Source: Escherichia coli | GTDB taxonomy: Bacteria > Pseudomonadota > Gammaproteobacteria > Enterobacterales > Enterobacteriaceae | DNA length: 64,000 nt | Strand: one strand, 5' to 3' | NCBI RefSeq assembly: GCF_009931435.1 | Contig: NZ_CP043414.1 | In this document: one piece after another, positions 55,583 to 59,100 of the stretch | Position numbering within the stretch: position 1 is the first letter of the stretch | Layout of the letters: each line of letters starts with the position of its first letter | The notes under the pieces: generated by a model | What the model was told of the DNA's origin: nothing | What the model saw: only the letters and a program-made list of their open reading frames with translations | Databases searched by the model: none | Translations under genes and position numbers: made by a program

Positions 55583-56152
55583 TTATTTTTCTTCACTACG
55601 AAGCAGTTCATGCTGTATTTTTGTTAAACATTCGTAAGACTCATCTTTGTTCGGGAGATGTGCTGTCATTCGAGCATAAGTTGGCTTCTCATCTTTAAAA
55701 TATTTAACCATGATTGAATTATCAAGGACTGCCAACAACTGAGCTGGATCACTGCTCTTTTTTTGATAGATACCCGCTCTTATATAACTTCTAAACCGAT
55801 CGCCGAGAAACGCCGTTTTTTCTGCTGTATTTATCAACTCCTGCAACGTTCCTTTGATGGCATGATTTTCATTAAGGCGTAGTGACCCAACGCGAATTAA
55901 GAGTCTCGCCCCGCTTGGTGTGAATTTATTATTTTTACATGTACCCAGTTCTGTTTGCCAATAATACTCACCGATGTCCTCATTCTGATACCATCTCCAC
56001 ATGGCTTTATTATTTAAGACAGGAAACGCGGAAAAAATAGTACCCTTAGCGAAAATAGTAAAACAATCATGATCTTTAGCTTGTATTTCGCAATCAGCTA
56101 TAGCACCAAAACTAACAAATATCATCAGCAAAAAGAACAAAAATCTTTTCAT
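55583..56152 (-). CDS. Candidate cognate immunity protein for the RhsB C-terminal toxin (signal peptide)
   Basis: 189 aa; start ATG overlaps the rhsB stop (ATGA); N-terminal signal peptide [21 protein letters not shown]-rich. Confidence 0.6.
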
Positions 56153-59100
56153 TTTCTTATTCCTCTCGATGTTCTCTGTTTCATTTTAGCTAAAATTTCA
56201 CCCAAATCATCTATCCCTGCTGTTGCTGGCCCATCGGGTTTATTAATGTCTGGGAATAAATAGGGTTCTGCACAAGTATATCCTGGTGGTAATTGAGTTG
56301 TTGGCCAATTTGTCTGTGGCAGGTAATCACTTGCTGTCTTTGTATCCATCCCTGGATACTGGGGATCATCCTGTGGCGTACAAGTCAGATTTGGTTTTAC
56401 CCACTTCCTGCAATACAGTGTGTAGTCGTAAGGGCTTAATGCTCTGAAGAATGTTTTGAAAACATTAGGCGCACTACTGGCCTGGTCAATAGGATATGGC
56501 AGTCTTAATTGTTTCGCTATGTCTGGCAATTTACTTGGATCGGGCGTAGGCGGTTTGTTGGGTCTCGCTCCATATCCGCCATTATTTAAGTGTCCATATT
56601 TTGATGCCAGTCCCATTGAATCTATATACTGAACCGGATTCAACGGATACTGATAAAAATTCCACCCGCCTTCCAGCCCAATCGGATCCTGAGTGATATA
56701 CCGCCCCTGCAGCGGGTCATAATAGCGATGGCGGTTGTAATACAGGCCGGACTCCTCCTCATACTGCTGACCCGGCAGGCGGATGAGCTGCTGCAGCTGG
56801 TGCGGGTTCTCTTCATTCAGCAGGTTGCCCCACTCATCGTATTCTGCGCACCATTCTGTTGCCCCTTCCGTGCTGACAAGCGCCAGCGGCAGGCCGCGAT
56901 GGTCGCAGTGGTACAGGTGGATTTTTCGCGCCGGCGTGTACACCGGGTCCATCTGGTTTTGCATCTGCTCCACCGTCAGGCCGCACGATGCCAGCCAGCG
57001 GCGGCTTTCCTCACTCACCCGGTCAGCCAGGATTTCACTTTCCAGCCGGTCGGGCATCTGCACCAGCACCGGCGGGAACACCACATGGCCACCGTCTTCA
57101 CCGCCGGACTGCTGAAGAGCGTCCGCCAGGCTGCGGCGCTGCGTTTTCGCCAGCTCACCGGTGGCGGTTTCAACTCTGATGAGTGGTGCGAAGCTCCCCG
57201 GCTGATAAACCGTCTGGATGCGGGTTCTGTCGTTCTGTATCGTGGTCAGCCGGTCGCCGTCCCAGCCGTACCAGGTCACTTCCGGTTTCCGTGACAGCGA
57301 CATCCAGCCCGTCAGGTCCCGTTCACGCCGCCACACCCGTTTTGCCACCCTGCGGCCCAGCGGGTCGTAAAGATAGCGACTTTCGACCAGCGGCTCTGCA
57401 TATTGTGTCCGCGTGTAGTGCACCAGCCGGTGCTGACTGTCGTAATGGTACCGGTGAGTCCGCTCATCATCCGTGCGGATAACCCCTTCCGGGATGAGGT
57501 CGGTTTTCTCCGTCAGCCTGCCGTGACGGTCATACCGGTAAAGATAGTGCGCGTCACGTGTTATACGATTATCCGGCCATATGCAGAGGGTGCTGTCCGG
57601 GTGCAGCTCCGGGTCAGGCAGGCGGTTACCTGCCGGGTCCGTGGCATACGGGATGCGGATATCCAGATTTGAGGTGGTGGTGTGGACGCCGGTCAGCCTG
57701 CCGGAGTCGCTGTAGCTGTAACTCCGGGTCTGGCGCGGGCTGCTGATGCGAATGAGTTCGCCGTTGTCGTTCCAGGTGTAATCGCGGTCATACTGCAGGC
57801 TGTTCAGGTGCTGGCTCTGTAACTGCCCGGCAGGGGTGTAAGCGGTGGTGAGTTCATAACGGCCGAAGCTGCGCAGCGTTTCCCGGTGCAGGCGGTCGCG
57901 GGTGAAATCCACCAGCGGTGTGTCGCCGAGTTTCATCCCTGCCAGGTAACCACTGCCATAAGTCAGCCATTCCACGGCGGGCAGGCTGTCCGGTATACAG
58001 CGGTTCGCCAGCCCCTGCGCGTTGTACGCATGTCTGGTTTCATGCTGCCAGAGCAGTGCTTCCGTCTGCGGGTGATGCACCGTCTGGCGCTCACCGGTCA
58101 GGCGGCCTTTCTCATCATACCCGTAATGCACCGTCACCCGGTGCCCTTCGCTGAGATGGCTGATGCCTGTCAGCCAGCCGCGTTCGTCGTACCGCCACTG
58201 TTCTGCGGTTTCACCATTCACCGTTCGCTGCGTGATGCGGTCTGCTTCGTCATAGTGCCAGTGGGTGACCAGTCCCTCATCCTCGCTGCGGATAAGTTTG
58301 CCGGTCAGGTCGTGGTGATAACGCTGTGTGCGGCCGTCAAAGCCGGTTTCCTGTATCAGCCGGTCGAGTACATCGTAACGGAAGGTGGTGTGGCTGCCGT
58401 TTTCGTTTGTCAGGCGGATGACCCGTCCTGCAGCATCGTATTCCATACTGCGGGTCAGCCCGCCCTGCGTGGTACGGACGGCCTTTCCCCACGCATCGTA
58501 CTGTGCCCCGTATCTGCTGCCGTCCGGGGCAATGACGGTGGTCAGGTCACCGGCGGCGTTGTATTCATACCGCGTTTCATGGCCCTGCGTGTCTTTCACC
58601 GCAATTAACTGTCCATGGCTGTCGTATGCGCGGCACTGGCTCAGGCCTTCCTCGCGGTGCACCGCCGTCATCTGCCCGAAGCGGTCATGGTCATAACGGG
58701 TCTGGTAGCCGGAACAGTCGGTGAAGGTCAGCAACTGACCGTAACGGCTCCACGTCATGGTTTTCCGGCTGCCGGTGGCATCTTCCGTTGCGCAGGGGAA
58801 GTCACTGTGTGGATTATCATAACGGTAGCGGATGATATCGCCGTCAGGGGCAGTTTCCTGAATCAGACGGCCGGATTCATCATATTCCCGGCGTATTTCC
58901 AGCCCGTCAGGCCCGGTGGCTGACGTTAACTGGTTGTGGTGGTTATAGTAAAACGCCGATGCCCTGCCATCCGGCGTGGTGATGCGCGTGATGAGTCCCG
59001 TCACCACATCCGGGCTGTATTCTGTTGTCCGGCCTGCGGCATCCGTCTGTGTCCTGAGCCTGCCCACCGCGTCAAACTGACTCTGCGTGACGCTGCCGTC

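What the first reader, a model, noticed from the sequence alone, without database searches (positions are those of the whole stretch)
55583..56688. RhsB C-terminal tip (174 aa after DPIGL) paired with a signal-peptide immunity candidate
The Rhs core ends at the DPIGL motif (encoded at 56674-56688). The following 174 aa tip is AT-richer than the core and shows no motif I can assign to a known toxin family. The downstream gene overlaps the rhsB stop by ATGA and encodes a 189 aa protein with a clear N-terminal signal peptide. A secreted immunity protein implies the toxin acts in the periplasm or envelope rather than the cytoplasm. The RhsB N-terminus carries a PAAR motif, consistent with delivery by a type VI system or similar.
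Basis: partly seen in the sequence, partly recalled or inferred. Interest (0 to 1): 0.5.

Follow-up and report, generated by a model that had tools for sequence, protein, structure and literature searches.

The report
Rhs toxin tip with exported immunity (YbfC)
This is an intact E. coli Rhs toxin gene whose uncharacterised C-terminal toxin is paired with the periplasmic protein YbfC, a module that most E. coli strains carry (K-12 only as a leftover fragment) and that probably attacks the cell envelope of rival bacteria, although its activity is still unknown.

Summary
A 1399-aa Rhs gene (56149-60348, minus strand) carries DPIGL at 56674-56688, followed by 174 codons. The 189-aa downstream ORF (55583-56152) overlaps it by ATGA. 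GC falls from about 0.6 to 0.35-0.45.

The locus is the E. coli rhsB site. The tip and downstream gene are the ybfO-CT/ybfC module, which K-12 and B strains hold as an orphan at rhsC. About 65% of complete E. coli genomes carry it.

The released toxin is probably 152 aa, not 174. The Rhs autoprotease motif pair ends at DSMGL, so cleavage would fall at L1247|A1248.

Neither protein matches Pfam, a specific NCBIfam model, PDB sequences or a specific known fold.

Distant relatives (37-45% toxin identity, 19-34% immunity identity) keep the same arrangement: Rhs tip, then a YbfC homolog with a signal peptide. YbfC cysteines occur in matched pairs, and the toxin has three invariant cysteines and no hydrophobic segment. 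This supports a toxin that acts in the periplasm and is neutralised there.

The PAAR claim is weak: Pfam gives only an 18-residue partial match. Links to type VI secretion come from relatives, not from this locus.

Verdict: a real, ordinary kind of system with an uncharacterised toxin family. Moderate interest.

The parts
56149..60348 (-). Full-length Rhs protein gene, 1399 aa, at the E. coli rhsB chromosomal site
   Evidence: ORF list and translation. NCBIfam NF041261 RHS_core scores 2608 bits over residues 1-1247, above the 2000-bit cut-off. RHS repeats by Pfam. Flanked by nikR and by yhhI/yhhJ in the 98.8%-identical strain 2020CK-00188.
60289..60342 (-). N-terminal PAAR-like motif (residues 3-20, literal PAAR at 5-8); not a full PAAR domain
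   Evidence: Pfam PF05488 matches model positions 52-69 of 70 only, E=0.19.
59980..60213 (-). DUF6531 domain (residues 46-123)
   Evidence: Pfam PF20148, E=7.6e-18.
56674..56688 (-). First DPxGL motif (DPIGL, residues 1221-1225), the conventional core/tip boundary
   Evidence: Read directly from the sequence.
56608..56622 (-). Second motif DSMGL (residues 1243-1247), 17 residues after the first; predicted autoproteolytic cleavage after L1247
   Evidence: Sequence. The RHS_core profile ends at residue 1247. The rule of two DPxGL motifs 17 residues apart, with cleavage after the second, comes from PMC8636562.
56152..56607 (-). Predicted released toxin, 152 aa (ASKYG...RGIRK). It has a proline-rich variable linker (about 33 aa), then a conserved core with three invariant cysteines and a C-terminal amphipathic basic helix
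   Evidence: No Pfam, NCBIfam or PDB match. 28 relatives in 1.84 billion representatives; every relative long enough to show upstream sequence sits on an Rhs C-terminus. Conservation. No hydrophobic stretch: maximum 19-residue Kyte-Doolittle mean 0.14. AlphaFold2 gives a core pLDDT of 70-81 and below 50 elsewhere.
56149..56152 (-). ATGA overlap of the rhs stop codon and the ybfC start codon
   Evidence: Sequence. The same 4-nt overlap is called in 6 of 8 related loci.
55583..56152 (-). ybfC, 189 aa, the candidate immunity protein
   Evidence: 97% identical to the cluster named 'protein YbfC'. RefSeq annotation. Homologs follow the toxin in all 9 pairs examined.
56096..56152 (-). Signal peptide of YbfC (residues 1-19, [19 protein letters not shown], predicted cleavage before D20)
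   Evidence: Hydrophobicity and charge profile; conserved in the full-length homologs examined. No dedicated signal-peptide predictor was available.
55586..56095 (-). Mature YbfC, predicted beta-sandwich with four cysteines (21, 30, 72, 175)
53993..57654 (-). Block 97.2% identical to the orphan array at the rhsC locus of E. coli B: last ~1 kb of core, tip, ybfC, an NTF2-fold immunity gene and a DUF6258 gene
   Evidence: blastn of the window against L002; annotation of L002 and L001.

Best explanation
This is a cognate toxin-immunity pair of the Rhs polymorphic-toxin kind.

The 1399-aa Rhs protein most likely encloses its C-terminal domain in the YD-repeat shell. Its own aspartyl-protease motif pair (DPIGL, 17 residues, DSMGL) most likely cuts it after L1247, freeing a 152-aa toxin.

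The toxin is a small soluble domain, rich in proline, with three invariant cysteines. It has no membrane-spanning segment and no invariant histidine or glutamate. I infer that it is delivered into neighbouring Gram-negative cells and acts in their periplasm, on the envelope. My committed guess at the mechanism is that it binds and blocks an envelope component, or uses unconventional chemistry, and is not a classical hydrolase or a pore.

YbfC is exported by a Sec signal peptide and folds as a disulfide-bonded beta-sandwich. It most likely protects cells by binding the incoming toxin in the periplasm. Because the toxin would have no cytoplasmic target, the producer would need no cytoplasmic antidote.

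Delivery is most likely by a type VI secretion system encoded elsewhere in the genome, as for other 'neighbourless' E. coli Rhs proteins.

The whole tip/immunity block moves between rhs loci by recombination in the shared core sequence. Here it sits on the full-length gene at rhsB. In K-12 and B strains it is a silent orphan at rhsC whose ybfC may still give protection.

Shown: the anatomy, the distribution, the conserved pairing, the export signal, and the absence of known domains.
Inferred: toxicity, cleavage, compartment, neutralisation by binding, and the delivery route.
For: Anatomy:
- Full Rhs core, the motif pair with exact 17-residue spacing, and the profile end at residue 1247. The cleavage rule is from PMC8636562.
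- A GC drop at the tip.

Pairing of toxin and immunity:
- In all 9 loci examined, a toxin relative is followed directly by a YbfC homolog. These include relatives at 37-45% toxin identity and 19-34% immunity identity to the window pair. The start usually overlaps the stop by 4 nt.
- Pairwise identities of the two proteins correlate (r=0.88, Mantel p about 2e-4).
- Both genes are under purifying selection between genera (dN/dS 0.14-0.30).

Export of the immunity protein:
- The full-length YbfC homologs examined have a basic n-region and a hydrophobic core.
- 4 of 28 have a lipobox instead of an A-x-A site.
- C30 and C175 are universal, and C21 and C72 are present or absent together.
- The model is a confident beta-sandwich.

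Toxin:
- Three invariant cysteines, no hydrophobic stretch, no invariant His or Glu.

Type VI linkage in relatives:
- VgrG, DUF2169 and PAAR-like genes lie next to the orphan array in L003.
- VgrG lies directly upstream of the full-length Rhs in Citrobacter loci L012 and L013, whose orphan array holds this module.

Mobility:
- A 3.66-kb block is 97.2% identical to the B-strain rhsC orphan array.
- The module sits on a full-length Rhs in 19 of 54 evenly sampled genomes and is an orphan in the rest.
Against: - Nothing functional has been tested. Toxicity, cleavage, binding and localisation are all inferred.
- No dedicated signal-peptide predictor was available.
- The toxin model is poor (pLDDT 53 alone; core about 80 in the fusion) and gives no fold match. 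The idea of a non-enzymatic binder rests only on the lack of invariant catalytic-type residues in a shallow alignment of about 25 sequences.
- The fusion model did not clearly order the toxin onto YbfC, and no interface score was available.
- The N-terminus has only a partial PAAR match. No vgrG, eagR or tss genes flank the gene. I did not establish whether the genome has a type VI system.
- The correlation between toxin and immunity divergence could reflect shared descent of linked genes rather than co-adaptation.
- In O157:H7 strain F8492, the full-length toxin sits beside a frameshifted ybfC. So immunity is not always maintained where the toxin is intact.
Confidence: 0.65

Rival explanations
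1. The toxin damages the inner membrane from the periplasmic side, as a pore or ionophore. This would resemble the Rhs effector Tse5 of Pseudomonas aeruginosa or the ionophoric CdiA toxins. YbfC would intercept it before insertion.
For: The immunity protein is exported. The toxin is basic (pI 9.1) and ends in a conserved amphipathic, basic helix (residues 132-150 in the models). An Rhs toxin that forms membrane pores is documented (PMC9637101, listed).
Against: There is no hydrophobic or glycine-zipper segment; the maximum 19-residue hydropathy is 0.14. The immunity protein is a soluble or lipid-anchored beta-sandwich. From my own knowledge, known pore-former immunity proteins are integral membrane proteins.
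Confidence: 0.15
2. The toxin is a cell-wall enzyme of a new type, such as a peptidoglycan or lipid II hydrolase that uses one of the invariant cysteines. YbfC would be an active-site inhibitor, as in the Tae/Tai and Tge/Tgi pairs.
For: From general knowledge, cell-wall enzymes are the commonest class of periplasm-acting type VI effectors and have exported immunity proteins. Here the toxin has three invariant cysteines, an odd number that leaves one possibly free, plus an invariant Ser and Asp.
Confidence: 0.2
3. YbfC is not the immunity protein. The toxin acts in the cytoplasm like most Rhs tips, and ybfC is an unrelated exported passenger gene, or protects against something else.
For: Most characterised Rhs tips are nucleases, deaminases or ADP-ribosyltransferases (PMC8636562; PMC6730261). 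Further immunity-like genes lie downstream: NTF2-fold, DUF6258 and YbbC/YhhH. In O157:H7 strain F8492, ybfC is frameshifted beside an intact toxin gene.
Against: The toxin-YbfC adjacency, usually with a 4-nt overlap, holds in all 9 loci, down to 19-34% immunity identity. The genes further downstream differ from locus to locus. A cytoplasmic toxin with no cytoplasmic antidote would be expected to kill its producer.
Confidence: 0.07
4. The module is an inactive relic, carried along by recombination and not used for competition.
For: About two thirds of sampled genomes hold it only as an orphan without the delivery part. K-12 lacks a type VI system (own knowledge). No adjacent secretion genes were found here.
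Against: In this window the gene is intact and full length, scoring above the RHS_core cut-off. Both genes show purifying selection between genera. Full-length versions exist in E. coli, including O157:H7, and in Kluyvera.
Confidence: 0.08

Closest known systems
E. coli K-12 / B orphan module ybfO (rhsO) - ybfC at the rhsC locus
   Same: Essentially the same DNA. The window's last ~1 kb of core, the tip, ybfC and the next two immunity-like genes are 97.2% identical to the B-strain block. YbfC is 97% identical to the cluster named 'protein YbfC'. K-12 derivatives such as JM109 carry the module at 98.4% identity.
   Different: In K-12 and B strains the tip sits on a truncated, promoter-less Rhs fragment downstream of rhsC-ybfB. 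Here it is fused in frame to a complete 1399-aa Rhs at the rhsB site. No paper in the library reports a function for either gene.
EHEC O157:H7 RhsC / 'RhsCI' (z0847+z0851 / z0853), described in silico in PMC7216683
   Same: O157:H7 genomes carry this tip on a full-length 1399-aa Rhs at the ybfA-rhsC locus, followed by ybfC. That paper treats the pair as a candidate type VI effector and immunity protein outside any vgrG island. I did not check by sequence that z0853 is ybfC; the match is by locus only.
   Different: A different chromosomal site. In strain F8492, ybfC is annotated as frameshifted, in a T-run within the signal-peptide codons. The paper's functional guesses (VipE-like, TPR) rest on weak scores and did not address export.
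Type VI Rhs effectors with PAAR or prePAAR N-termini (Photorhabdus Rhs1/Tre23, Pseudomonas protegens RhsA, Enterobacter cloacae RhsA/B)
   Same: YD-repeat shell, a double DPxGL autoprotease motif before a variable toxin, a downstream immunity gene, and a lower-GC tip.
   Different: Those toxins act in the cytoplasm and have cytoplasmic immunity proteins. They also have a full PAAR domain, transmembrane helices and an Eag chaperone gene. Here the PAAR match is partial, no eagR or vgrG is adjacent, and the immunity protein is exported.
Pseudomonas aeruginosa Tse5 (RhsP1) / Tsi5
   Same: An Rhs protein whose released C-terminal fragment acts at the envelope rather than on nucleic acids (PMC9637101, listed).
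   Different: From my own knowledge, Tse5-CT is hydrophobic and forms pores, and its immunity protein is membrane-embedded. This tip has no hydrophobic segment, and YbfC is a soluble-type beta-sandwich. No sequence or fold similarity was found.
Periplasm-acting type VI effector/immunity pairs (Tae/Tai, Tge/Tgi, Tle/Tli)
   Same: The logic is the same: the effector is harmless in the producer's cytoplasm, the immunity protein carries a signal peptide or lipobox, and periplasmic proteins depend on disulfide bonds (PMC5792426, listed).
   Different: Those effectors are stand-alone cargo enzymes with known catalytic residues. This one is an Rhs tip with no Pfam match and no invariant His or Glu.

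Membership tests
Rhs polymorphic toxin (full-length 'RHS element core protein') | YD/RHS repeat core of about 1,200 residues | tested here: met
   NCBIfam NF041261 scores 2608 bits (cut-off 2000) over residues 1-1247. YD_repeat_2x gives 9 stretches, and the Rhs_assc_core domain is present. Pfam RHS_repeat hits.
Rhs polymorphic toxin (full-length 'RHS element core protein') | PxxxxDPxGL boundary and a second DPxGL-type motif 17 residues later (the autoprotease site) | tested here: met
   DPIGL at residues 1221-1225, 17 residues, then DSMGL at 1243-1247. The second motif has S in place of P. The rule is from PMC8636562. Cleavage itself is not testable here.
Rhs polymorphic toxin (full-length 'RHS element core protein') | Variable C-terminal domain of different composition, followed by a small immunity gene | tested here: met
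   GC 0.35-0.45 against about 0.6 in the core. ybfC overlaps the stop codon. The pairing is conserved in 9 loci.
Rhs polymorphic toxin (full-length 'RHS element core protein') | The C-terminal domain is toxic and is neutralised specifically by the downstream protein | not testable with these tools
   Needs expression and binding experiments.
Type VI secretion PAAR-Rhs effector | N-terminal PAAR domain that caps VgrG | tested here: inconclusive
   Pfam PF05488 matches only residues 3-20 (model positions 52-69 of 70), E=0.19. The literal PAAR letters and an AARxxD string are present.
Type VI secretion PAAR-Rhs effector | Genetic linkage to vgrG, eagR or tss genes | tested here: not met
   Upstream is nikR and downstream is an orphan immunity array, then yhhI and yhhJ. 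No such genes occur in the 64-kb neighbourhood of the near-identical strain. Relatives are linked: L003, L012 and L013.
Type VI secretion PAAR-Rhs effector | A type VI system in the same genome, and secretion that depends on it | not tested
   The whole genome is not available as text, and no secretion assay is possible.
YbfC family (NCBI name 'protein YbfC') | Full-length sequence similarity to E. coli YbfC | tested here: met
   97% identity over 100% of the length to cluster P0029, 'protein YbfC'. RefSeq names the gene ybfC at the matching places.
Cys-His peptidoglycan amidase effectors (Tae1-4, NlpC/P60, CHAP) and L,D-transpeptidase-like effectors | Invariant catalytic Cys plus His | tested here: not met
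   Cysteines are invariant, but there is no conserved histidine anywhere in the toxin core. No Pfam hit.
Pore-forming / ionophoric toxins (Tse5-CT, Tse4, Ssp6, ionophoric CdiA-CT) | Hydrophobic or glycine-zipper membrane-inserting segment; membrane-embedded immunity protein | tested here: not met
   Maximum 19-residue Kyte-Doolittle mean is 0.14. YbfC has only the N-terminal signal sequence and a beta-sandwich body.

The most novel reading that the evidence does not exclude
The 152-aa tip founds a toxin family with no known fold or catalytic signature. It would kill from the periplasm by stoichiometric binding to an essential envelope machine, or by chemistry not yet seen in interbacterial toxins. 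It may have escaped detection because the standard prey strains (E. coli K-12 and B) carry the orphan immunity gene ybfC.
Probability: 0.3. Interest if true: 0.65.

Novelty: new member of a known kind. Interest (0 to 1): 0.4.

Why it matters
Rhs tips characterised so far are mostly cytoplasmic nucleases, deaminases or ADP-ribosyltransferases. A small, soluble tip that acts in the periplasm, with an exported beta-sandwich antidote, would add a different target class.

It sits in the best-studied bacterium. The module is present in about two thirds of complete E. coli genomes, and no function has been reported for either gene.

Two practical points follow.

1. K-12 and B laboratory strains carry ybfC. 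They would be immune prey in competition assays, so a ybfC deletion is needed to see this toxin at all.
2. The toxin's target, once found through suppressor mutants, could point to a vulnerable step in the envelope.

If the toxin turns out to be inactive, the finding is simply a correctly read and ordinary Rhs locus.

Tried and rejected
- **Family searches.** Pfam on the tip and on YbfC gave no hit even at E<=10. NCBIfam matched only the Rhs core tail, residues 2-22 of the tip.
- **PDB sequence search.** Profile searches with both alignments gave only chance-level hits, E>=0.17.
- **Fusion model.** YbfC, a linker and the tip, with a partly paired 34-row alignment, gave a confident YbfC but only a small gain for the toxin core. 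No interface measure was available, so it does not test binding.
- **Promoter and terminator scan** around the tip and ybfC: no more sites than in shuffled sequence.
- **Literature.** No functional paper on YbfC or YbfO. The new polymorphic-toxin domains PT1-9 (bioRxiv 10.1101/2021.10.19.465003) include two periplasm-acting ones. These are reported on type V or eCIS carriers, not Rhs, and I could not compare sequences.
- **A wasted look-up.** P0100 turned out to be the L003 immunity protein already in hand.
- **Rejected: Cys-His amidase or L,D-transpeptidase-like enzyme.** No conserved histidine.
- **Rejected: classical pore former.** No hydrophobic segment.
- **Rejected: lipoprotein for the E. 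coli YbfC.** Asp precedes the cysteine. Four distant homologs do have a lipobox.
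Full report
**1. The observation**

The minus strand carries an ORF from 60348 to 56149 that encodes a 1399-aa protein. DPIGL is encoded at 56688-56674 (residues 1221-1225). After it come 174 codons and a TGA at 56151-56149.

The next ORF starts at the ATG at 56152-56150, so stop and start overlap as ATGA. It runs to 55583 and encodes 189 aa.

GC is 0.58-0.69 across the Rhs core and falls to 0.35-0.45 across the tip and the downstream gene.

The downstream protein begins [21 protein letters not shown]. 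It has two basic residues, a 13-residue hydrophobic core and an A-x-A site.

**2. Identity of the locus**

The region is E. coli. It is 98.8% identical over 8.2 kb to strain 2020CK-00188. There the gene lies between nikR and an array of small genes followed by yhhI, yhhJ and rbbA. That is the rhsB site.

The tip is not the K-12 RhsB tip. RefSeq names the downstream gene ybfC. Window 57654-53993 is 97.2% identical to the orphan block that E. coli B carries at the rhsC locus. That block holds a truncated Rhs fragment (ybfO in K-12 nomenclature, from my own knowledge), ybfC, an NTF2-fold immunity gene and a DUF6258 gene.

The tip plus ybfC is present at 80% coverage or more in about 3,500 of 5,426 complete E. 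coli genomes. I sampled 54 full-length matches at even steps down the ranking. In 19 the tip lay on a protein named 'RHS element core protein' (full length, for example O157:H7). In 35 it lay on a fragment.

So the module is very common. It moves between rhs loci and is sometimes armed and sometimes orphaned. This fits the C-terminal displacement picture of rhs evolution, which I know from the literature rather than from a test here.

**3. Where the toxin starts**

The NCBIfam RHS_core profile (2608 bits, cut-off 2000) ends at residue 1247, which is 22 residues past DPIGL. Those 22 residues are [17 protein letters not shown] followed by DSMGL.

This is the second of the two DPxGL-type motifs, 17 residues apart, that form the Rhs C-terminal autoprotease. 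In Photorhabdus Rhs1, cleavage occurs after the second motif, and its aspartate is catalytic (PMC8636562).

By analogy the released toxin is residues 1248-1399, or 152 aa (56607-56152). Cleavage itself is an inference.

**4. The two proteins are unassigned**

- Pfam gives nothing for either protein, even at E<=10.
- NCBIfam gives only the core tail for the tip and nothing for YbfC.
- Profile searches of PDB sequences give only chance-level hits.
- The paper library holds no functional study of YbfC or YbfO.
- An in-silico study of EHEC lists the probable O157 version as RhsC/RhsCI. I matched it by locus, not by sequence. Its structural guesses are weak.
- A transcriptome paper calls ybfC a 'putative secreted protein'.

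**5. Relatives and conserved pairing**

Word-based searches found only close relatives, at least 59% identical, in Escherichia, Salmonella, Citrobacter, Kluyvera, Phytobacter and Pseudocitrobacter.

A profile search of 1.84 billion cluster representatives found 28 proteins. Among them are relatives that are 37-45% identical to the window toxin over the conserved domain. Every relative long enough to show upstream sequence sits at the C-terminus of an Rhs core.

I fetched contigs for these and for several YbfC homologs. In all nine loci the toxin relative is followed directly by a YbfC homolog. In six of the eight related loci the start overlaps the stop by 4 nt.

Foldseek also picked up a toxin relative and a YbfC-like protein from one Paracidovorax species, and a YbfC-like protein in Delftia. 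I did not check whether the two Paracidovorax genes are adjacent.

Pairwise identities of toxin and immunity across ten pairs (the nine loci plus one pair joined only by matching contig length) correlate with r=0.88 (Mantel p about 2e-4). That fits co-inheritance and co-adaptation, but shared descent of linked genes would give the same result.

Between genera, dN/dS is 0.14-0.17 for ybfC and 0.19-0.30 for the tip. Both genes are therefore maintained.

**6. Evidence for the periplasm**

- **Signal peptide.** The full-length YbfC homologs examined have the n-region and hydrophobic core of a signal peptide, including those only 19-34% identical to the window protein.
- **Lipobox.** Four of 28 have a PROSITE-type lipobox in place of the signal-peptidase I site. 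The E. coli protein does not, because Asp precedes the cysteine.
- **Cysteine pairs.** Cysteines in the mature protein come in even sets. The equivalents of C30 and C175 are universal. C21 and C72 are present together or absent together. Two disulfides in an oxidising compartment would give this pattern.
- **The toxin.** It has three invariant cysteines, 14.5% proline, pI 9.1 and no hydrophobic stretch; the best 19-residue hydropathy is 0.14.

An exported antidote cannot protect the cytoplasm. The simplest reading is that the toxin has no cytoplasmic target and acts in the periplasm of recipient cells.

**7. Structure**

- **Tip alone.** The prediction is poor, with pLDDT 53. A three-stranded core over residues 61-120 reaches 70-79, followed by a C-terminal helix.
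- **Fusion.** I built a fusion of mature YbfC, a linker and the tip, with a 34-row, partly paired alignment. The YbfC part is confident (pLDDT about 85-92) and mostly beta. The toxin core reaches 77-81, and the rest stays below 50. The tool gives no interface score, so this does not test binding.

**8. What the toxin might do**

Across about 25 sequences, the invariant positions are:
- a Ser-Pro pair,
- three Cys,
- one Trp,
- a Leu/Ile-Pro pair,
- an Ala and an Asp at the start of the last helix,
- a basic C-terminus.

There is no invariant His or Glu. That argues against the Cys-His amidases, the L,D-transpeptidase-like effectors and the lysozyme-like enzymes. The lack of hydrophobic segments argues against a classical pore.

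My committed reading is a small disulfide-stabilised domain that binds an envelope target. New chemistry on the cell wall is the main alternative. This sub-claim is weakly supported.

**9. Delivery**

The N-terminus contains the letters PAAR. The Pfam PAAR model matches only 18 residues at E=0.19. DUF6531 follows at residues 46-123.

No vgrG, eagR or tss gene lies nearby. I did not establish whether the genome has a type VI system.

Relatives are linked to type VI genes. VgrG lies directly upstream of the full-length Rhs in Citrobacter loci whose orphan array holds this module. VgrG, DUF2169 and a PAAR-like gene lie next to the array in L003.

Type VI delivery is therefore likely but not shown for this gene.

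**10. Verdict**

It is wrong in treating the tip as specific to RhsB and as 174 aa, and it overstates the PAAR evidence.

This is a new, uncharacterised member of a well-known kind of system, carried by most E. coli. Interest is moderate. One practical point stands out: common laboratory prey strains already hold the antidote.

Noticed in passing
L019 7523-8093 (E. coli O157:H7 strain F8492, rhsC locus); corresponds to window 56125-56140: In O157:H7 the same tip sits on a full-length 1399-aa Rhs, but ybfC is annotated as frameshifted. A C-to-T change and one extra T make a T9 run inside the signal-peptide codons. Other O157 genomes match with 1092 or 1093 nt against a 1091-nt query, so the run length may vary. 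This could be real loss of immunity, phase variation or a homopolymer sequencing error.
   Followed up: partly
window 52344-55582 (minus strand): Downstream of ybfC lies an array of small immunity-like genes with no full toxin. RefSeq for the near-identical strain names them NTF2-fold immunity protein (55112-55339), DUF6258 (54159-54560), pentapeptide-repeat fragment (53563-53940; confirmed by NCBIfam) and YbbC/YhhH family (53211-53609). The last may be the immunity gene of a displaced earlier rhsB tip.
   Followed up: partly
window 55423-55542 (minus strand): Just upstream of the NTF2-fold gene, one reading frame gives HVLNGYPGTPEGRFGKMDSDGRNIIYSECNVLPSTFEIR*. It looks like the C-terminal stump of another toxin whose body has been lost. 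NCBIfam gave no match.
   Followed up: partly
window 52344-52778 (minus strand): The ISEc1/H-repeat transposase gene yhhI is cut to 144 codons. The window lacks about 760 bp that strain 2020CK-00188 has at this point (L001 16309-17070).
   Followed up: no
L008 4735-5301 and 5404-5976: One distant relative carries two YbfC-like genes in tandem after the toxin, apparently a duplicated immunity gene.
   Followed up: no
L003 5734-6108 and L011 1489-1860: Two metagenomic loci share a conserved 123-124-aa gene with a C-terminal hydrophobic segment just after the YbfC homolog. It is absent from the E. coli locus and its role is unknown.
   Followed up: no
window 60190-60215 (Rhs residues 46-60, [15 protein letters not shown]): The start of DUF6531 resembles the PVxxxxGE-type N-terminal autocleavage signature described for Aeromonas and Photorhabdus Rhs proteins (PMC8636562). 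The short PAAR-like N-terminus might also be cut off. Not tested.
   Followed up: no
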